From: an uncultured Salinisphaerales bacterium
GTDB lineage: Bacteria; Pseudomonadota; Gammaproteobacteria; Nevskiales; CAJXLF01
NCBI GenBank assembly: GCA_913055805.1
Contig: CAJXLF010000014.1
Location: 2,326-66,325, forward strand
Direction: 5' to 3'
DNA length: 64,000 nucleotides
This document shows, piece by piece, positions 18,711 through 64,000 of this stretch. The position numbers and the translations under genes are program-made. A model generated the notes under the pieces. That model was not told the origin of the DNA and searched no databases. It worked only from the letters and a program-made list of their open reading frames with translations. The stretch's first letter is position 1, and every line of letters starts with the position of its first letter.

Positions 18711-19001
18711 AACGGCTTTTTAAGACAAGGCATTAGCACGGCTTTATGTTGCGCGTGAACGGTGGGTTTGGTACAAACTCCCAGTGAATGAATGTGGCGA
18801 ATCGGGGGTTGCCACAATCGATCAAAAGATTAAAAACATATATGCAGTCCGGCGGACTATCCGTTTGGACGGGAGGAGGGATGCACTGCAGGGATCGTTG
18901 CGTTCTTCAGGAATTGCTTCCTCTGATGTTTGCGGCCGGCATAACCATGCCGGATCGGATGAGAACAGGGTGCCTGGGTGCAGGAGAGAGAGGGGTTGAT
19001 T

Positions 19002-21311
19002 ATGGCGTTGCCTGATACGCTTTTTAATGTACGTCGCCGGTTTACGGTATTCACTTTTTTGTTTCTGGCCTGGCCGCTTTCTGCCCAGGCACTGGAATTC
19101 GACCTCTGGGGAATCAGCGGCACATTGGATAACAATGTGACCATTGGTGGCGCCTGGCGCATGGAGGAGCGAAATCCGGACCTGATCGGCAAGAGCAGCT
19201 TGCAGCCAGGGTTGTGTACCGCACGCCGATCAGACGGCAGTCTGGGTAACAAGGAAGGCCATACTGGCAGCCCAACGCCCGGCAATGTCGGCGGCACCTG
19301 TAATGCGACCACCGATTCCAGCGTGAATCAGGCCTATGTCACTGAGCCGGGCTTTTTCTCGCCCAATACGGATAACGGCAACCTGAATTACGACGAGGGT
19401 GATGTGGTTTCCGCTGCTGTCAAATGGACGGGCGATCTGGTGCTGAATATGGGCTCGCTCAGCGCCTTCATCAGAGGCGTTTATTTCTTCGATGAAACCA
19501 ACAACGACTTCGACGAATTTCATCCGGATACAACCCTGCAGCCCCGCGAAACACGTCGTTCGGATGCAATAAACGACAACATCGGCACCGATTTCGATAT
19601 TCTCGACGCTTATCTGACCTACAACTTCGAACTCTTTGATCGTTTCGTCTCATTGAAGGTGGGCGACCAGGTGATCAACTGGGGTGAGAGCGCCTTCCTG
19701 GTACCGGGTAGCATCAATAACATCAATCCGCCCGATGTAACACGTTTGCGTCTGCCGGGATTCAATGTGAAGGAGCTGTTCCAACCCTCCGGCATGGTGC
19801 ATCTGGCCACTGATCTGACGAACACCATTTCCATGGAGCTTTTCTATCAGTATGAATGGGTGCCGGTCGTGCCCGATCAGGCGGGAAGCTTCTGGTCGAC
19901 TAGTGATATTGCCGGTGGCGGCACCTATGCCATGCTCAGTTTTGCCAAGGCGCCGGAAGATCCAAATGGTGACTACAACGCTTCAGAAAACCCGGATGAC
20001 CCGATCGGCCTGATTTCCAGCGCCAGCCGTACGTTGCAGCGTGGACCTGACCGTACGGCGGATGACGGGGGGCAGTATGGTGCGGCCATTCGCTATTTTG
20101 CTGAAAACCTGAATGGGGGTACCGAATTCGGTTTCTACTACCAGCGCTACCATTCCCGTCTGCCCATCGCCAGTTTCTATGCGGCCAATGGCACCTGTAT
20201 CAATGAGGGCAGCAATAACGTGGTTCTCGCGATAGCTGACTGTGGCATTGGAGGGCCTTTCGGGCGTCTGGGTGTAGGCAGTGTAACGGGACTGCTGGCT
20301 TCGCAAGGTTTGCCGATTCCCGCCGAGTTACAGGGGCTGGCGGATACCGTGCGTATTGGTCTGGCGAATGAACCGGTGCCGGTGGATACCGCCCGCGTCT
20401 TCCTCGAATATCCGGAAGACCTTGATATGTACGGCCTGAGCTTTAACACCCTGTTGGGTGATTGGGCCTGGTCAGGTGAGGTGGCCTATAGGCCAGAAAC
20501 ACCTCTGCAGATTCATACCACTGACCTCACGCTGGCGGCGGTTAACCCGGCTTTCCCGAATCATGCGTTGGCTATTCCGGGCGTGGGCAATCTGCCTAAT
20601 CGGCGCCTGGCGGCTCCGGATTACATCACTTCATTCCGTGGCCGTAATCCCAGTACCGAGGAAGGGCGAGTGAAGCCGGGCGAGTACATTCCTGGTTTCG
20701 AGATGATGAAAACCTATAATCTGGAAAGTACTTTCCTGCGTACCATCGGCGGTGACAACTTCCTTGGCGCGGACCAGATTGCAGTTATTCTGGAGCTGGG
20801 CGCGACCTTTGTGGACGATTTCCCGGATATCACCGAAGTACAATTCAACGGCGATGGCGCCGATACCCACTTCAGTAATGGTGCGGATGGTACGGTGTCG
20901 CCCCGTGACACGGCTGATTTGACCAATTCGAGCGGCGACGGCCTGGTGAATACAGGCTGCGCTGGCGATCTGAATGCTTGCCGTCAGAACCCGACGCAAC
21001 AAGACGAAAGCGCCTTCGCCACCGAGTGGTCCTATGGTTATCGCTTTATCACGTTGGTTACGTACAATGACGTCTTCCTCGGCGTCAATGTGGCGCCGCT
21101 CTTAGGAGTGTTCCATGATGTGGGAGGCATTTCGCCGGGGCCGGGAGGCAACTTCATTGAAGATCGTGTCGTATCGCTGGCCGGTTTGCAGTTCGACTAC
21201 CTGAGTAAGTGGAATGCCGAGCTCCGTTACACGGACTACAGTGGCGGCGGTGTGAACCATCAGCAAAACGACCGTGATTTCATCTCCCTCTATGTGGGGT
21301 ATCAGTTCTGA
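19002..21311 (+). CDS. DUF1302-family outer membrane beta-barrel protein
   Basis: Signal peptide ...AWPLSAQA, N-terminal FDLWGISGTLDNNVTIGGAWRMEERNPDLIG typical of DUF1302, and C-terminal ...YVGYQF. GAGAGAGAGGGG SD upstream of ATG 19002. Confidence 0.7.
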   Translation: MALPDTLFNVRRRFTVFTFLFLAWPLSAQALEFDLWGISGTLDNNVTIGGAWRMEERNPDLIGKSSLQPGLCTARRSDGSLGNKEGHTGSPTPGNVGGTCNATTDSSVNQAYVTEPGFFSPNTDNGNLNYDEGDVVSAAVKWTGDLVLNMGSLSAFIRGVYFFDETNNDFDEFHPDTTLQPRETRRSDAINDNIGTDFDILDAYLTYNFELFDRFVSLKVGDQVINWGESAFLVPGSINNINPPDVTRLRLPGFNVKELFQPSGMVHLATDLTNTISMELFYQYEWVPVVPDQAGSFWSTSDIAGGGTYAMLSFAKAPEDPNGDYNASENPDDPIGLISSASRTLQRGPDRTADDGGQYGAAIRYFAENLNGGTEFGFYYQRYHSRLPIASFYAANGTCINEGSNNVVLAIADCGIGGPFGRLGVGSVTGLLASQGLPIPAELQGLADTVRIGLANEPVPVDTARVFLEYPEDLDMYGLSFNTLLGDWAWSGEVAYRPETPLQIHTTDLTLAAVNPAFPNHALAIPGVGNLPNRRLAAPDYITSFRGRNPSTEEGRVKPGEYIPGFEMMKTYNLESTFLRTIGGDNFLGADQIAVILELGATFVDDFPDITEVQFNGDGADTHFSNGADGTVSPRDTADLTNSSGDGLVNTGCAGDLNACRQNPTQQDESAFATEWSYGYRFITLVTYNDVFLGVNVAPLLGVFHDVGGISPGPGGNFIEDRVVSLAGLQFDYLSKWNAELRYTDYSGGGVNHQQNDRDFISLYVGYQF

Positions 21312-53092: not shown

Positions 53093-53893
53093 CTAATCAT
53101 CGTGCCGGCTATGCAGACGGCGAAGACGCCGTCGCCGGCTGCGCTGGAATCTGAGCCATAACCACAGGCCGGTGATACCCAGAAGCACGAAAATCACGGC
53201 CATGGCATCCATAAGCCAGACCCCCATGTGACCGAATAGCCGGCCACTATGTGCATCCAGAATCAATCGCTCCCAGTTCAATGCCTGATACCTGGCCTGC
53301 TCAACGAGTTTGCGGGTCAGTTCCGGGGGCAGTTCGGAGCTGTGGTATTGCACTTCAATACTGCGGGTTGCCGGTTGCCAGTCAGGCCAGTTGGCGGCCA
53401 GCGGGTCTGCAGAAAACAGCCCGCGTTCAGTTGCCAGCAGTAGATTCCCACTCTCTGATGCAACGGCAGTTATGCGCCCTGGCAGATCGAGTCCCTGCAA
53501 CTGGTCCAGTACTTCCGCCTTGTCATTCAGCAGCCACAGAGACTCGCGGCTGGCTGCCGCCCAGAGCAGACCAAGGCGGGTGAAGCCGACAGGGGGTGTG
53601 CCCTGGCCGATCAATTGCTCGTTGAGATAAAGATGGCCATCGACGTGACTCAGCCAGTGCTGTTCCAGTCGCAAACCGGTTTGTGGGGGCTGCGGTTGAA
53701 TGCCGTAATGAGACTGTAGCCAGTGCCATTCTGCGCCAAGTTGGTCGAGTTTCAGTTGATGGCTGTGTTGCAGGAGGATGCCGCTGAAGGCAAGCCAGAT
53801 CACAAACAGGGCACTGATGATACCCAGCCAGCGATGCCAGCGATAAAGCGAGCGCAGTTGTTTGCTCAGTGGCTTGGGGCCGCGCCGTGTCAT
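53093..53893 (-). CDS. PepSY-associated TM helix protein (putative membrane reductase subunit)
   Basis: LYRWHRWLGIISALFVIWLAFSG N-terminal helix and C-terminal HSGRLFGHMGVWLMD... helix with conserved His residues. ATGA overlap with the upstream FMN-binding gene. Confidence 0.65.
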   Translation of the reverse strand: MTRRGPKPLSKQLRSLYRWHRWLGIISALFVIWLAFSGILLQHSHQLKLDQLGAEWHWLQSHYGIQPQPPQTGLRLEQHWLSHVDGHLYLNEQLIGQGTPPVGFTRLGLLWAAASRESLWLLNDKAEVLDQLQGLDLPGRITAVASESGNLLLATERGLFSADPLAANWPDWQPATRSIEVQYHSSELPPELTRKLVEQARYQALNWERLILDAHSGRLFGHMGVWLMDAMAVIFVLLGITGLWLWLRFQRSRRRRLRRLHSRHDD

Positions 53894-54471
53894 GAGCTAC
53901 TCGCGCGGTTGCGGCTGGATACTGTGGCAGACTCGTCATTGACGTGTCTGTGGTAAATCAGCGCCAGCCGGGCAAGTTTGCGCATTGCGTTGACTGATAG
54001 AGTGGCGCCGGAAATGCCGTCGATAGTCCGGTCCAGATTCAGGTCGCTGTCGATGGTTGCATTATCAAATTGTGCCGTGAACTGCGGGTAGCGGATTTCC
54101 CAGCCCCGGCTCTCGCGAAAAACCAGTACGCGCGTGTCTATGAGACGGTCGTCTTCCACGACAAAGCCGGCGGTTATTGGTTCTTCTTTACCGATTTCTT
54201 CCAGAATCCAGATGCTGCGACTACCGCTTTGCCAATAGCGCTGACGCAAAGCCAGGGGCCTGTGACCGAGGATGGTTTCGGTTTGAGCTCGCAGATCACC
54301 GGTAATCCACAGACTTTTGGCGTCTCCGGCCTGAGGCAGTTGCTGCGCAACATAGGCCTCAGGCTCAAGATATACCTGCTCCGCCCAAACCGGGGCGCAA
54401 CCCAGCAGGAGCAGGGCTGCAAGCGGGTTGCGCAGGTAAGGCAAGATTGTTCCGGACCAGGCTGTGGGCAT
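53890..54471 (-). CDS. Periplasmic FMN-binding domain protein with flavinylation motif
   Basis: Signal peptide. The C-terminal DGISGATLS matches the ApbE-type covalent FMN attachment motif (D..SGAT). Confidence 0.7.
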   Translation of the reverse strand: MPTAWSGTILPYLRNPLAALLLLGCAPVWAEQVYLEPEAYVAQQLPQAGDAKSLWITGDLRAQTETILGHRPLALRQRYWQSGSRSIWILEEIGKEEPITAGFVVEDDRLIDTRVLVFRESRGWEIRYPQFTAQFDNATIDSDLNLDRTIDGISGATLSVNAMRKLARLALIYHRHVNDESATVSSRNRASSS

Positions 54472-54481
54472 TATTCGCTCA

Positions 54482-54513
54482 AATAAAAAAGGTGCGCCAT
54501 GCAGCGCACCTTT
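54482..54513 (-). terminator. Rho-independent terminator after porin gene
   Basis: Minus strand reads GGTGCGC-tgcatg-GCGCACC followed by TTTTTTATTT. Confidence 0.7.
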
Positions 54514-54537
54514 AATGATAGTGAGAATGAGTTAGAT

Positions 54538-55761
54538 TTAGAACTGGTAGCCAACACCCAGATTGAAACCGTTACGATCTTGTCCGTTTTCATTGTCCTG
54601 GCTCTGGTAGTCAGCCTTGAGCACTACGTTCTGGTGTAGCCACCAGTTCACGCCGACATCCCATTGTTTCTTTTCGCTGTCGATACTGTCGTCACCGGCT
54701 TGGTTATCCCAGACGTTATAACGTGTGAACAGTCCCACGGTTGGCGTGACTTTCCAGGAGGGCTCGATATAGAAGCCTTCCTGGGTATCGGCGCCATTGG
54801 CATCCGCCGCGCTACCCTTGATGTCCCACATTGCATACAGGGCGCGCAGGCCGAAGGGGCCGCGTGTAAATACGGCATGGGCCTCGTACAGGTGGCCGGC
54901 GTCGACGTTATCGCCACTTTGCTGCGTGATATCAGACTGGTACTGATAAGTACCGGCAATTTCCAGACCCGGCATGCCGGTCCATTTCAGGCGGGAAGTA
55001 AATGCCAGATCCTTGGCGTCGGCCTCCGCTGTTTTCTGGCGGCCGCCACGGACCGCAATACTGCCCGTAGGATCAACTTTGAGGCCTTCATGAATAGCCC
55101 CGTCCCAGGTCCAGCCATCGGCCACGCGCCAGGTCAGCCCGGCGCCGCCGGCCCACCAGGTAGTGGGAATGATGGCGTTTTCCACCGGGTTGCGTTCCAC
55201 GCCATAGAAGGTCGGCGGCTCGTGGGTTTCATTGAGAATGCCCACGGGCAGCAGGAACAGACCGCCGCGTGCAGTGAGCTGGTAGTTGACGTCATATTCG
55301 ATGTAGGCCTGTTCAAGTTCCACCTCGCCTGGACCGCTGCCATCGTCGGTGTCCTTGGTAAGTGCGTGTTCGAGTTCCAGTTCCGAGAAGAAACGCAGAC
55401 GATCGGTGAATTGATGGCTGAAGAACAATACAAAACGATGAAAGTCGATGCGGTCCAGGTCACTGGCGCCGCCTTCACCGTCCAGATTGTTGTAATGCAG
55501 TTCGCCATAGCCGCCGATGTCGGTTCGCTCGGCCCAGGAAAGCTTTTTGCTCTGCTCGGCCTGTTCATCGGCGATGACTTCGATTTGTTCCTGCTGCTGG
55601 GTCTGCTGCTCAGCGATTTGCGCCTTCAGGGCTTCCAGTTGGGCCTCCAGCGCCTGGATGCGCCGATTCAGGTCGTCAGAGGCCGAGGCGCCGGGTGTGG
55701 TGACTAGCAGAATGCCTGCAATGAGGCTGTAAACAGCGGTGTGCTGCAGTTTGAATTGCAT
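54538..55761 (-). CDS. Outer membrane beta-barrel porin with N-terminal coiled coil
   Basis: Signal peptide ...PGASA, coiled coil RIQALEAQLEALKAQIAEQQ, alternating beta-strand pattern, and C-terminal LGVGYQF. GGGAGAG SD upstream of ATG 55761. Confidence 0.65.
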   Translation of the reverse strand: MQFKLQHTAVYSLIAGILLVTTPGASASDDLNRRIQALEAQLEALKAQIAEQQTQQQEQIEVIADEQAEQSKKLSWAERTDIGGYGELHYNNLDGEGGASDLDRIDFHRFVLFFSHQFTDRLRFFSELELEHALTKDTDDGSGPGEVELEQAYIEYDVNYQLTARGGLFLLPVGILNETHEPPTFYGVERNPVENAIIPTTWWAGGAGLTWRVADGWTWDGAIHEGLKVDPTGSIAVRGGRQKTAEADAKDLAFTSRLKWTGMPGLEIAGTYQYQSDITQQSGDNVDAGHLYEAHAVFTRGPFGLRALYAMWDIKGSAADANGADTQEGFYIEPSWKVTPTVGLFTRYNVWDNQAGDDSIDSEKKQWDVGVNWWLHQNVVLKADYQSQDNENGQDRNGFNLGVGYQF

Positions 55762-55846
55762 GAACTCTCCCTTGGCGCAAAGGCCTGTGTTTATCGTATC
55801 CACGGCCCTCTACCGTGGTGGCTCGTGATATTACGCCTATGATAAA

Positions 55847-55865
55847 GATGGCGCAAATCATTCTC
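55847..55865. promoter_or_regulatory. Fur-box-like operator upstream of porin gene
   Basis: GATGGCGCAAATCATTCTC matches GATAATGATAATCATTATC at 13/19 by hand. It shares AATCATTCTCATT(C/T)GCG with the bfd box and lies ~90 nt upstream of ATG 55761. Confidence 0.45.
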
Positions 55866-55967
55866 ATTCGCGCAAATTCTGTGCTGAGCAGGCCGAGGTG
55901 GAGTGCCCTGACTGTGCTCGAAAGCCTTTTATTTCAAGCGTTGTGGGCAAGAGGGAAAATTATATTT

Positions 55968-55986
55968 GCAAATAAGAATCATTATC
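55968..55986. promoter_or_regulatory. Fur box overlapping an orphan plus-strand promoter
   Basis: GCAAATAAGAATCATTATC matches the Fur consensus at 15/19 by hand. It sits between a putative -35 TTGCAA (55966-71) and -10 TAGTCT (55990-95). Confidence 0.6.
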
Positions 55987-55999
55987 GTTTAGTCTGTGT

Positions 56000-56097
56000 T
56001 GGCTGGCTCCTTATGCAGCATTTGCGTTGGCGCAGATGTGGAGTCATGCGTTTCTCTCCGAAACCTTGCCGGGCGGTGTTGCCGCCCGGTTTTTTTT
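56000..56097 (+). ncRNA. Candidate Fur-regulated small RNA (RyhB/PrrF functional analogue); 5' end approximate
   Basis: A Fur-boxed promoter upstream and a strong intrinsic terminator at 56069-56097, with no ORF in between. C/U-rich stretches (GGCTCCTTA, TTTCTCTCC) could act as anti-SD seeds. Located next to bfd-bfr. Confidence 0.45.
56069..56097 (+). terminator. Orphan rho-independent terminator
   Basis: CCGGGCGG-tgttg-CCGCCCGG followed by eight T. There is no upstream plus-strand CDS to terminate. Confidence 0.8.
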
Positions 56098-56122
56098 GGC
56101 TAGCGGGGGGCTGTCCATGTCT

Positions 56123-56141
56123 ATGATTGACAATCATTCTC
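56123..56141. promoter_or_regulatory. Fur box overlapping the bfd promoter
   Basis: ATGATTGACAATCATTCTC (13/19 by hand) contains a consensus -35 TTGACA (56127-32), ~50 nt upstream of bfd ATG. Confidence 0.55.
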
Positions 56142-56191
56142 ATTTGCGTTTAACTGGCAACATCTGCATAACCGCTGGCGTGGTGCCACAC

Positions 56192-56416
56192 ATGTATGTA
56201 TGTCTTTGCAATGCTGTCACTGACCGGAAAATCCGCGAAGCCGTGGGTGAGGGTTGTTGCAGCATGCGTGACCTGCAGACTACGCTCGGCGTTGCCGCCC
56301 GTTGCGGCAAGTGTGCCTCCAGTGCGCGCGATGTGCTGGTTGATGCTTTGCATGAAAAAGCGGCACATGTCCAGACGTCTAACGTGACGCCTATTCGCAA
56401 TCGCACTGCAGCCTGA
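56192..56416 (+). CDS. bfd: Bacterioferritin-associated ferredoxin
   Basis: MYVCLCNAVTDRKIREAV...CGKC [2Fe-2S] BFD motif, closely parallel to E. coli Bfd. The track ORF start at 56027 is an extension. Confidence 0.85.
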   Translation: MYVCLCNAVTDRKIREAVGEGCCSMRDLQTTLGVAARCGKCASSARDVLVDALHEKAAHVQTSNVTPIRNRTAA

Positions 56417-56495
56417 CAAACCCGTCAGGGAACGCTAATCCTTCATAGTCGAGTTTTTACGGCTGAGCAGCCGGACGGATTCTGTGTGTCAGAAT

Positions 56496-56514
56496 GGCAA
56501 TGCGAATCACTCTC
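56496..56514. promoter_or_regulatory. Weaker Fur-box-like site upstream of bfr promoter
   Basis: GGCAATGCGAATCACTCTC (13/19 by hand) lies ~60-80 nt upstream of a putative -10 TATACT (56576-81). Confidence 0.3.
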
Positions 56515-56616
56515 ATACTCATTTAAATTTCTTTTAAAAACAACAGTTTAAACTTTATATTCCGCCCTGGTTTGCTATACTTTGCAGGTATCCAAAAACA
56601 TCTGACGGAGTTGATC

Positions 56617-57096
56617 ATGAAGGGTGACCCCAAAGTCATCGAGTACCTGAATAAGGGTCTGAAAGCCGAGCTGACAGCCATTAACCAGTATTTTCTGCAT
56701 GCCCGCATGTATAACAACTGGGGGCTGGACAAACTGGGCGCAAAAGAATACGAAGAATCCATCGACGAAATGAAGCATGCGGACAAGCTGATTGAGCGAA
56801 TCCTGCTGCTGGAGGGCCTGCCCAATGTTCAGGATTTGGGCAAGGTCATGATTGGCGAGGATGTGCCGGAGATGCTCAAGTGTGACCTGGATCTCGAATA
56901 TCAGGCACACCCGCTCTACAAGGAAGCGATTGGTTACTGCGAGTCAGTGGGCGACTATGTCAGCCGGGAGCTGTTCGTGGACATCCAGGAAAGCGAGGAA
57001 GAGCATATCGACTGGCTGGAAACCCAGCTGGAACTGATCGAGAAGGTCGGCTTGCAGAATTATCTGCAATCCCAGATGAAGCCCGCCGAAGACTGA
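56617..57096 (+). CDS. bfr: Bacterioferritin
   Basis: [36 protein letters not shown]...IDEMKHAD includes the heme-ligand Met. ACGGAG SD. Confidence 0.95.

Positions 57097-63484: not shown

Positions 63485-64000
<516 letters not shown>

What the first reader, a model, noticed from the sequence alone, without database searches (positions are those of the whole stretch)
55960..56100. Orphan Fur-box promoter plus strong terminator: candidate Fur-repressed small RNA next to bfd-bfr
Seen: the best Fur-box match in the window (GCAAATAAGAATCATTATC, 15/19 by hand) lies between a TTGCAA -35 and a TAGTCT -10 facing the plus strand. About 75 nt downstream is a textbook intrinsic terminator: 8-bp GC stem plus T8, at 56069-56097. 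The interval has no credible ORF, and no upstream plus-strand gene could own the terminator, since the neighbouring porin gene is on the other strand. The interval contains C/U-rich stretches (GGCTCCTTA, TTTCTCTCC).

Established: RyhB, PrrF, ArrF and NrrF are ~90-120-nt Fur-repressed sRNAs built this way, and they repress iron-storage and iron-using protein mRNAs.

Inference: this is a lineage-specific functional analogue. I see no obvious sequence identity to RyhB or PrrF from memory.
Basis: partly seen in the sequence, partly recalled or inferred. Interest (0 to 1): 0.7.

Follow-up and report, generated by a model that had tools for sequence, protein, structure and literature searches.

The report
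New Fur-controlled small RNA beside bfd
A roughly 96-base non-coding RNA gene with an iron-repressor (Fur) binding site in its promoter and its own terminator sits just upstream of the iron-storage genes bfd-bfr, is conserved in seven related uncultured bacteria, and matches no described RNA family, so it is probably a new lineage-specific counterpart of the iron-sparing RNAs RyhB and PrrF.

Summary
The Fur box at 55968-55986 matches the consensus at 15/19, the best match in the window. It overlaps a TTGCAA/TAGTCT promoter. An 8-bp GC stem plus T8 terminator lies at 56069-56097.

It is more than a chance pairing of motifs. I found homologues in seven distinct loci from uncultured gammaproteobacteria whose nearest labelled relatives are 'Nevskiales' MAGs. 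Each lies immediately upstream of bfd. Each has the same parts:
- a -35 TTGYAA, a Fur box in a 17-18 nt spacer, and in six of the seven a TAnnnT -10;
- a variable 5' hairpin;
- an invariant exposed GUUUCUCUCCGA;
- a terminator whose upper stem covaries.

The neighbouring Bfd proteins are only 45% identical between the two subgroups. No ORF is conserved. The 126-aa 'Bfd' that gene callers report here is an over-extension through the terminator.

No Rfam family reaches its threshold: PrrF scores 16.6 bits against a cut-off of 90, and RyhB and NrrF give no match.

The most likely reading is a Fur-repressed, trans-acting RNA that pairs with ribosome-binding sites through its C/U-rich core. Its targets are not identified, and pairing with the neighbouring bfr, bfd and porin mRNAs is not significant. 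The RNA is missing at this position in several close relatives.

It is a new member of a known kind, of moderate interest.

The parts
55966..55971 (+). -35 hexamer TTGCAA of the sRNA promoter
   Evidence: Sequence. TTGYAA sits at the same position in all 7 homologues.
55968..55986 (.). Fur box GCAAATAAGAATCATTATC, overlapping the -35 and the spacer
   Evidence: 15/19 to the consensus, the best match in the window, with 0.06 expected by chance. Read on the other strand it matches the local motif AATNATTCTNATT that the porin and bfd promoters share. Fur boxes of 12-16/19 sit at the same place in the five homologues scored.
55990..55995 (+). -10 hexamer TAGTCT (18-nt spacer)
   Evidence: Sequence. 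Five other homologues have TATTAT, TATTCT, TAACAT, TAAACT or TATTCT at 17-18 nt spacing; L144 has the weaker TAAAAA.
56002..56097 (+). Predicted sRNA transcript, about 96 nt. The start is estimated from the -10; the end is the T8 tract.
   Evidence: Fold energy -43.8 kcal/mol, z = -4.96, with 0 of 200 shuffles folding as well. Homologues are 75-110 nt. Expression was not tested.
56004..56046 (+). 5' hairpin: outer stem UGGCUCC/GGAGUCA, a 7-nt internal loop UUAUGCA, and an inner stem GCAUUUGCG/CGCAGAUGU
   Evidence: In L134 and L136 the outer stem is kept (G.U becomes A-U in L136). The inner stem has a different sequence in each but still pairs.
56050..56061 (+). Invariant core GUUUCUCUCCGA, a C/U-rich putative seed that resembles the anti-Shine-Dalgarno sequence
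   Evidence: Identical in all 7 distinct homologues. The UCUCC is unpaired, or sits in a loop, in every single-sequence fold.
56068..56097 (+). Intrinsic terminator: GC-rich stem 56069-56089 plus U8 at 56090-56097
   Evidence: Covariation across homologues: 95% of cells paired, 4 pairs with changes on both sides, 0 of 500 shuffles reach the observed score, and versions with the 3' partners shifted by 1-3 columns collapse to 27-60% paired.
56127..56147 (+). Context only: bfd's own promoter and Fur box (TTGACAATCATTCTCATTTGC), 30 nt after the sRNA terminator
   Evidence: It is nearly invariant in all bfd loci, with or without the sRNA. This shows that bfd does not depend on the sRNA promoter.
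56192..56416 (+). Context only: bfd (74 aa, PF04324), true start ATG 56192
56617..57096 (+). Context only: bfr (bacterioferritin, 159 aa, PF00210)

Best explanation
This is a stand-alone gene for a non-coding RNA of about 96 nt, the first described member of a small, previously uncatalogued family.

How it most likely works:
1. Fur bound to Fe2+ sits on the box that overlaps the -35 and spacer, and keeps the gene off when iron is sufficient.
2. Under iron limitation the RNA is made together with the neighbouring Fur-controlled bfd and the porin/PepSY operon.
3. The RNA ends at its own intrinsic terminator.
4. It acts in trans. The invariant, exposed C/U-rich core GUUUCUCUCCGA, between a 5' hairpin and the terminator, pairs with purine-rich ribosome-binding regions (GGAGAG-like). 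This would lower translation and stability of target mRNAs, most plausibly those of non-essential iron-containing or iron-storing proteins. That is the logic of RyhB and PrrF.

Shown here: the sequence features, their conservation, the structure and covariation, the lack of coding potential, and the absence of any Rfam membership.

Inferred: Fur binding, iron-dependent expression, trans action, any Hfq dependence, and the identity of the targets.
For: 1. The Fur box is the best in the window and one of three exact copies of the local Fur motif. All three lie within 300 bp, in front of iron genes.
2. There are seven distinct homologues: window, L134, L136, L027, L141 (L142 is identical over the aligned stretch; L143 differs at one base), L144 and L145, plus a truncated one in L133. 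Each lies directly upstream of bfd and shares the -35 TTGYAA, a Fur box in the spacer, a 5' hairpin, the invariant 12-nt core and a terminator; six of the seven also have a TAnnnT -10.
3. Conservation is selective. Bfd is only 45% identical between the window and L027, yet the core is identical. Within the window subgroup, the intergenic spacers and the bfd 5'UTR are not conserved, while the promoter, outer stem, a 27-nt core block and the terminator are.
4. The terminator helix covaries: 4 pairs change on both sides, and 0 of 500 shuffles reach the observed score. The inner 5' stem has a different sequence in each member of the window subgroup but still pairs.
5. Fold z-scores run from -1.85 to -5.07. 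The core is unpaired or in a loop in every homologue.
6. No conserved start codon or frame exists, and lengths differ by non-multiples of 3.
7. A covariance model of the 3' module scores 63-75 bits on the nine copies. The next best score in 728 kb is 20 bits or less.
8. bfd keeps its own perfect -35 and Fur box downstream of the terminator, including in relatives that lack the RNA, so the RNA is a separate unit.
Against: - No expression data exist, and the organism is uncultured.
- The -10 is weak (TAGTCT), and a generic promoter scan missed it.
- No convincing target was found. Pairing of the core with the translation start regions of bfr, bfd, the porin and an ErpA-like gene is within the range of shuffled controls. 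The best site in the window is a DUF1302 outer-membrane protein gene, which has no known link to iron.
- The RNA is absent at this position in five related loci: L004, L006, L138, L139/L140 and L146. It is therefore dispensable or relocated in those lineages.
- All but one homologue were found by looking next to bfd, so the adjacency to bfd is partly an effect of how I searched.
Confidence: 0.6

Rival explanations
1. It is a real Fur-controlled trans-acting sRNA, but its regulon is not the RyhB/PrrF-type iron-sparing set. It might instead tune outer-membrane or uptake proteins, or some unrelated set of mRNAs with GGAGAG-type ribosome-binding sites.
For: The best predicted site in the window is the translation start region of a DUF1302 outer-membrane protein gene (GGAGAGAGAGG at about 18983-18996, -26.9 kcal/mol, the best of 531 candidate start sites). 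The bfr and ErpA-like start regions are not significant. The RNA is encoded among envelope and iron-uptake genes (porin, PepSY).
Against: Only about 56 genes could be tested, a small part of the genome. The DUF1302 hit has z of only -2.5 against its own shuffles, and its conservation was not tested. Other Fur-repressed sRNAs whose targets have been studied (RyhB, PrrF, BrrF, IsrR) include iron-protein mRNAs among their targets (PMC7377471, PMC9410917).
Confidence: 0.2
2. It is a cis-acting leader or second upstream promoter for bfd. Transcripts from the Fur-box promoter would read through a leaky or conditional terminator into bfd, and the short RNA would be only an attenuation product.
For: It always lies directly upstream of bfd and in the same orientation. 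In the L027 subgroup the U tract abuts the bfd -35. Some homologues have interrupted U tracts, for example L136 UCUCUUCGG.
Against: bfd has its own perfect -35 TTGACA and Fur box after the terminator. That promoter is identical in relatives that lack the RNA. I could see no alternative anti-terminator pairing: no upstream segment is complementary to the terminator's 5' arm. The conserved part is a single-stranded C/U-rich stretch, not a ligand-binding fold. The window's terminator, a 10-bp stem plus U8, looks strong.
Confidence: 0.08
3. The transcript is incidental. The Fur box and terminator would be there to insulate or co-regulate the divergent porin operon and bfd, for example as extra Fur-binding sites or a transcriptional roadblock, and the RNA would have no function of its own.
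For: Fur boxes are dense in this 300-bp region. The unit is absent in several relatives, which keep the porin and bfd Fur boxes.
Against: An incidental transcript would not keep a 12-nt invariant core, a 27-nt invariant block within the subgroup, a structure-preserving 5' hairpin and a covarying terminator across lineages whose Bfd is 45% identical.
Confidence: 0.08
4. It is protein-coding: either a small peptide (such as the 35-aa GTG ORF at 55996-56103) or the N-terminal extension of Bfd that gene callers annotate (126 aa from 56036).
For: The gene caller output lists a 126-aa Fer2_BFD protein that spans the region. One frame relative to the core is free of stop codons in all homologues.
Against: The extension runs through a strong terminator and bfd's own promoter. 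All Bfd homologues start at MY(V/I)C(L/I)C. No conserved start codon or Shine-Dalgarno sequence exists, lengths differ by non-multiples of 3, and conservation is confined to 12 nt plus the stems.
Confidence: 0.02

Closest known systems
PrrF1/PrrF2 of Pseudomonas (Rfam RF00444) and ArrF of Azotobacter
   Same: - A Fur box overlaps a sigma-70 promoter.
- The RNA is about 100 nt, with hairpins, then a single-stranded C/U-rich stretch, then a GC-rich terminator. PrrF has AUUAUCUCCUCAUCAGGC where this RNA has GCGUUUCUCUCCGAAAC.
- It occurs in gammaproteobacteria.
- The window subgroup also carries CUCCUYAUGCAGC in its 5' hairpin, which recalls the CUCCUCAU of PrrF.
   Different: - It scores only 16.6 bits against the PrrF gathering cut-off of 90. 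Most of that score comes from the promoter/Fur box and the terminator.
- The homologues give no PrrF match at all.
- The genomic context differs: it lies next to bfd, whereas in P. aeruginosa the prrF genes lie next to the phu heme-uptake locus (PMC7948967).
- It is a single copy, not a tandem pair.
RyhB of Enterobacterales and Vibrio (Rfam RF00057)
   Same: It is a Fur-repressed, independently terminated sRNA of about 90 nt. RyhB represses bfr, sdh, sodB, acn and erpA, which is the function proposed here by analogy.
   Different: There is no sequence or structure match, even at E <= 10. The RyhB seed is not a UCUCC-type anti-SD motif. Predicted pairing with the local bfr and ErpA-like start regions is not significant.
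BrrF of Burkholderia (PMC7377471)
   Same: It is an iron-starvation-induced sRNA with a lineage-restricted sequence, which lowers TCA-cycle and oxidative-stress genes.
   Different: BrrF is processed from the 3' end of the hemP mRNA and has no Fur box of its own (PMC7377471). The RNA here has its own Fur-box promoter and terminator.
mmgR / alpha-r8 (Rfam RF00519 'suhB') of alphaproteobacteria
   Same: This is the best Rfam score (27.3 bits). The layout is the same: a 5' hairpin, then GCGUUUC-CUCCC-type C/U-rich linker, then a terminator.
   Different: The score is below the gathering cut-off of 41. Only one homologue (L134, 22.6 bits) repeats the match. To my knowledge mmgR responds to nitrogen status rather than iron, and it belongs to a different class of bacteria. 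The resemblance is one of architecture, meaning convergence on an anti-SD linker, not membership.
IsrR (Staphylococcus) and FsrA (Bacillus)
   Same: These are Fur-repressed sRNAs whose C-rich motifs pair with Shine-Dalgarno regions of iron-protein mRNAs (PMC9410917). The proposed mode of action is the same.
   Different: They are unrelated in sequence, come from Gram-positive bacteria, and have several C-rich motifs rather than one invariant core.

Membership tests
PrrF (RF00444) | Scores at or above the Rfam gathering cut-off (90 bits) against the covariance model | tested here: not met
   16.6 bits, E about 1-6. No match in six homologous loci at E <= 5.
PrrF (RF00444) | Fur box overlapping the promoter | tested here: met
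   15/19 Fur box at 55968-55986, between the -35 and -10. This feature is shared by all Fur-regulated promoters and is not specific to the family.
RyhB (RF00057) | Match to the covariance model | tested here: not met
   Not listed among matches with E <= 10 over 55700-56700 or 55940-56110. Nothing reaches the gathering score in the whole window.
NrrF (Rfam) | Match to the covariance model | tested here: not met
   No match at E <= 10.
mmgR / suhB (RF00519) | Scores at or above the gathering cut-off (41 bits) | tested here: not met
   27.3 bits in the window, 22.6 bits in L134, and no match in the other homologues.
Functional class: Fur-repressed trans-acting sRNA | Own promoter with an overlapping Fur box | tested here: met
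   The promoter geometry is conserved in all 7 homologues, and the Fur box in the five scored.
Functional class: Fur-repressed trans-acting sRNA | Own intrinsic terminator, non-coding, with conserved structure | tested here: met
Functional class: Fur-repressed trans-acting sRNA | Expression induced by iron limitation or loss of Fur | not testable with these tools
   The organism is uncultured and no expression data were accessible.
Functional class: Fur-repressed trans-acting sRNA | Base-pairs with mRNAs of iron-using or iron-storing proteins | tested here: inconclusive
   Only the 64-kb window and short loci could be scanned. bfr, bfd, the porin and the ErpA-like gene are not significant. The best site is a DUF1302 gene.
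Functional class: Fur-repressed trans-acting sRNA | Dependence on an RNA chaperone (Hfq or ProQ) | not testable with these tools
   The only support is the generic layout of a U-rich tail after a terminator hairpin.

The most novel reading that the evidence does not exclude
The RNA, bfd and bfr form one compact Fur-controlled 'release, don't store' cassette. When iron runs out, the same signal would switch on Bfd, which mobilises iron from existing bacterioferritin, and an sRNA dedicated to shutting down new synthesis of iron-storage or iron-consuming proteins. The sRNA-bfd pair would then be gained and lost as a unit. That would explain its constant position and its patchy distribution among close relatives.
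Probability: 0.15. Interest if true: 0.55.

Novelty: new member of a known kind. Interest (0 to 1): 0.4.

Why it matters
Fur-repressed sRNAs are the post-transcriptional half of bacterial iron homeostasis. They are known by sequence only in a few cultured lineages: RyhB, PrrF/ArrF, NrrF, BrrF, and FsrA/IsrR. Each is lineage-specific, so homology searches miss them elsewhere.

This finding adds a family from uncultured environmental gammaproteobacteria. It comes with a defined promoter, a candidate seed and a covariance model, and could be added to Rfam. It gives a concrete handle for reading iron stress in metatranscriptomes of these organisms. It also adds one more case of an anti-Shine-Dalgarno-type seed under Fur control, which may be convergent.

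It does not change the general picture of how such regulators work.

Tried and rejected
1. A metagenome-wide exact-pattern scan for GCGTTTCTCTCCGARACC returned 49 hits. All lie in unrelated sequence, mostly coding, and none has the following terminator. The scan did not even recover the window's own sequence, so that collection lacks this organism.
2. A viral-contig scan for the core plus terminator gave nothing.
3. BLASTN and nhmmer with the 141-nt region against 80 porin-anchored genome loci found only a weak hit in L027. That hit proved real on inspection.
4. The small hairpin GUUUC/GAAAC around the core is predicted in the window. I rejected it as a family feature because L141, L144 and L145 have GAGCC there.
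5. I rejected the extended 126-aa Bfd as a mis-called start.
6. I tested bfr as the obvious neighbouring target in four loci. The pairing energies are indistinguishable from shuffles.
7. The ErpA-like, porin, argC and bactofilin translation start regions are not significant either.
8. Looking up cluster members to name the organism returned no names.
9. Literature searches for the motif, or for an sRNA next to bfd, found nothing relevant.
10. In thirteen more distant bfd loci, read by eye, the bfd Fur-box promoter is conserved but no Fur-box-plus-terminator unit precedes it.

Full report
**1. The observation**

- -35 TTGCAA lies at 55966-55971.
- The Fur box GCAAATAAGAATCATTATC lies at 55968-55986.
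- -10 TAGTCT lies at 55990-55995, after an 18-nt spacer.
- A hairpin CCGGGCGG/CCGCCCGG at 56069-56089 is followed by T8 at 56090-56097.

A scan of the whole window with the 19-bp Fur consensus ranks this box first at 15/19. Base-order shuffles give 0.06 such matches per window. The terminator scan finds the hairpin independently.

Read on the opposite strand, the box is a copy of a local motif, AATNATTCTNATT. That motif has three exact copies in 64 kb. All three lie between 55856 and 56144: in front of the divergent porin operon, in front of this unit, and in front of bfd.

The promoter hexamers are weak (7/12), and the generic promoter scan did not report them.

The left neighbour is on the minus strand. 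It is a Porin_O_P gene at 54538-55761, followed by FMN_bind and PepSY_TM genes. The terminator therefore cannot belong to an upstream plus-strand gene.

**2. The annotated ORF is an artefact**

Public gene calls on identical metagenome contigs give a 126-aa Fer2_BFD protein that starts at 56036. That ORF runs through the terminator and through bfd's own promoter. All Bfd homologues begin MY(V/I)C(L/I)C, which corresponds to ATG 56192. The true bfd is 56192-56416, and the upstream 156 nt of the called ORF are not coding.

**3. Structure**

The predicted transcript folds into three parts:
- a long 5' hairpin, with outer stem UGGCUCC/GGAGUCA, an internal loop and an inner stem;
- a short linker that contains UUUCUCUCC;
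- the terminator.

The energy for 56003-56098 is -43.8 kcal/mol, with z = -4.96 and 0 of 200 shuffles folding as well.

**4. Known RNA families**

Nothing in the region reaches an Rfam 15 gathering score. With permissive thresholds the best matches are:
- mmgR/suhB, 27.3 bits against a cut-off of 41;
- PrrF, 16.6 bits against a cut-off of 90.

The PrrF alignment shows that the score comes from the promoter/Fur box, which the Rfam PrrF model includes, and from the terminator. RyhB and NrrF do not appear even at E <= 10. The homologues found later give no consistent Rfam match. The RNA is not a member of any catalogued family.

**5. Relatives**

The window comes from an uncultured bacterium. Identical copies occur on JGI and ENA metagenome contigs.

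A genome-collection search with the porin returned 80 loci. The nearest are MAGs labelled Nevskiales or unclassified Gammaproteobacteria. Three of them (L004, L006, L027) have the same divergent arrangement, with the porin operon on one side and bfd-bfr on the other.

L027 carries a clear homologue between the porin and bfd. It has a Fur box in a TTGTAA promoter, then GCGTTTCTCTCCGAGACC, then a CCCGGGCGG/CCGCCCGGG terminator. L004 and L006 have a shorter intergenic region with only the porin and bfd Fur boxes.

An exact-pattern scan of the metagenome collection gave only chance hits in unrelated, mostly coding, sequence.

The productive route was to search for Bfd proteins with an alignment and then fetch the DNA that encodes the closest ones. 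This gave further homologues:
- L134;
- L136;
- L141, L142 and L143, together with L144 and L145;
- L133, where only the terminator end survives at the edge of the contig.

L138, L139/L140 and L146 lack the RNA. L137 is cut off at the bfd Fur box, so it cannot be scored.

**6. What is conserved**

Alignments A4 and A5 and the promoter table show these features across the seven distinct sequences:
- -35 TTGYAA;
- a 17-18 nt spacer, with Fur-box matches of 12-16/19 in the five homologues scored;
- -10 TAnnnT in six of the seven (L144 has TAAAAA);
- a 5' domain that varies in sequence but always forms a hairpin;
- an invariant GTTTCTCTCCGA;
- a terminator with a constant CCCGGG base and a varying upper stem;
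- bfd's promoter, ATTGACAATCATTCTC, which either abuts the U tract or follows within 30 nt.

The RNAs are 75-110 nt long. They fall into two subgroups: the window, L134 and L136 in one, and L027, L141, L144 and L145 in the other. The Bfd proteins of the two subgroups are about 45% identical, so the identity of the core is not explained by recent common ancestry.

Within the first subgroup, the intergenic spacers and the bfd 5'UTR cannot be aligned. The promoter, the outer stem with CUCCUYAUGCAGC, a 27-nt block (TGGAGTCATGCGTTTCTCTCCGAAACC) and the terminator are conserved.

The terminator helix is 95% paired across the set. Four pairs change on both sides, 0 of 500 shuffles reach the observed score, and pairing drops to 27-60% when the 3' partners are shifted by 1-3 columns.

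The inner 5' stem has a different sequence in the window, L134 and L136, yet it pairs in each. The outer stem shows G.U changing to A-U.

The small GUUUC/GAAAC hairpin predicted in the window is not conserved, because the second subgroup has GAGCC there. The core is best described as exposed.

No start codon or reading frame is conserved, and lengths differ by non-multiples of three.

**7. Specificity and distribution**

A covariance model of the 3' module (R1) was searched over 94 sources totalling 728 kb. It scores 63-75 bits on the nine full-length copies. The next best scores, 20 bits or less, are terminators read on the other strand. The window has one copy. None of the other 79 porin loci has one, and about 16 of those carry bfd.

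In thirteen more distant relatives the bfd Fur-box promoter is almost unchanged, but coding sequence or another gene's terminator precedes it.

The family therefore appears confined to a narrow clade, and within that clade it is present or absent locus by locus. All but one homologue were found by looking beside bfd. Copies elsewhere in the genomes that lack it here cannot be excluded.

**8. Mechanism**

The architecture is that of a classical Fur-repressed, trans-acting sRNA:
- a Fur box over the promoter;
- an independent terminator with a U tail;
- a structured 5' domain;
- an invariant single-stranded C/U-rich stretch that mimics the anti-Shine-Dalgarno sequence and would pair with GGAGAG-type ribosome-binding sites.

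RyhB, PrrF, BrrF and IsrR work this way on mRNAs of iron-using proteins (PMC7377471, PMC9410917). By analogy I propose iron-sparing regulation. This step is inferred.

I tested the obvious local targets. Pairing of the core region with the translation start regions of bfr (four loci) and bfd (seven loci) is no better than shuffled controls. Pairing with the porin, an ErpA-like Fe-S carrier gene and others in the window is not significant either.

Across 531 candidate start sites in the window, the best site is that of a DUF1302 outer-membrane protein gene: GGAGAGAGAGG just upstream of ATG 19002, at -26.9 kcal/mol. Its z against its own shuffles is only -2.5, and I could not test whether the site is conserved.

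The window is a small part of the genome, so this says little either way.

**9. Rivals**

- **Leader or attenuator for bfd.** This is unlikely. bfd keeps its own perfect -35 and Fur box after the terminator, with or without the RNA, and I could see no anti-terminator pairing.
- **Incidental transcript from a Fur-site cluster.** This does not explain the invariant core or the compensatory changes.
- **Coding readings.** These fail on frame and start-codon conservation.
- **Real sRNA with a different regulon.** This remains open.

**10. Comparison, novelty and score**

The RNA works like PrrF or RyhB on present evidence, but it fails the membership test for every catalogued family. It also differs from BrrF, which is cut from the hemP 3' end and has no Fur box of its own (PMC7377471). 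Literature searches for the motif, or for an sRNA beside bfd, returned nothing relevant.

I classify it as a new member of a known kind. I put interest at 0.4. It is a solid, well-delimited new sRNA family with comparative support and a clear experimental path, but it is not conceptually surprising.

Noticed in passing
window 56036-56191: Public gene calls extend bfd to 126 aa by starting at ATG 56036. The extension reads through the sRNA terminator and bfd's own promoter. The true start is ATG 56192. A similar over-long call (133 aa) exists in L135.
   Followed up: yes
window 53093-55761 (minus strand), Fur box 55853-55871: This is an operon of a Porin_O_P-family porin with a coiled-coil N-terminus, an FMN_bind protein and a PepSY_TM protein, behind a Fur box. 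It looks like an iron-regulated outer-membrane and reductase system. The porin has more than 500 relatives across Gammaproteobacteria and Betaproteobacteria, often near bfd-bfr.
   Followed up: partly
window 56496-56514: A fourth, weaker Fur-like box (13/19, GGCAATGCGAATCACTCTC) lies in the bfd-bfr intergenic region. It sits just upstream of two overlapping promoter-like sites at 56533-56581 that would drive bfr separately from bfd.
   Followed up: no
window 18983-19004: The ribosome-binding region of a DUF1302 outer-membrane protein gene (19002-21311) reads GGAGAGAGAGG. It is the best predicted pairing partner of the sRNA core in the window (-26.9 kcal/mol). The significance is weak, and conservation was not tested.
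   Followed up: partly
L139 1465-1495 and L140 150-180: In relatives that lack the sRNA, the short spacer between the porin and bfd Fur boxes contains GACCGGGCTTGGCTTTTTGG. This resembles the 3' arm and U tract of the sRNA terminator, and may be the scar of a deletion.
   Followed up: no
L135 250-345: A different Fur-box-preceded stretch lies upstream of bfd in a JGI contig. It has a hairpin plus a U-rich run (CCACC...GGTGGTCTTTCTTC) and no similarity to the family described here. It may be an unrelated analogue, or just the promoter region of the divergent gene.
   Followed up: no
L007, L008, L010, L014, L016, L019, L020, L024, L029, L034, L036, L039, L041 (about 40-85 nt upstream of bfd): The bfd promoter with its embedded Fur box (ATTGACAATCRTTCTCATT) is almost invariant across twelve of these thirteen very distant gammaproteobacterial and betaproteobacterial MAGs and isolates (the Thiohalobacter locus L016 has a different Fur box). 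It is much more conserved than the bfd coding sequence.
   Followed up: partly
window 63485-64000: The 5' part of a 16S rRNA gene runs off the end of the window (Rfam SSU_rRNA_bacteria, 443 bits). It could be used to place the organism, but no rRNA reference set was available here.
   Followed up: no
L145 1-2308: In this homologous locus the left neighbours are a TonB-dependent receptor and a cytochrome b-type (Ni_hydr_CYTB) gene on the same strand as the sRNA. In L134 the left neighbour is an unrelated 164-aa gene. So only the link to bfd is constant, not the link to the porin.
   Followed up: partly
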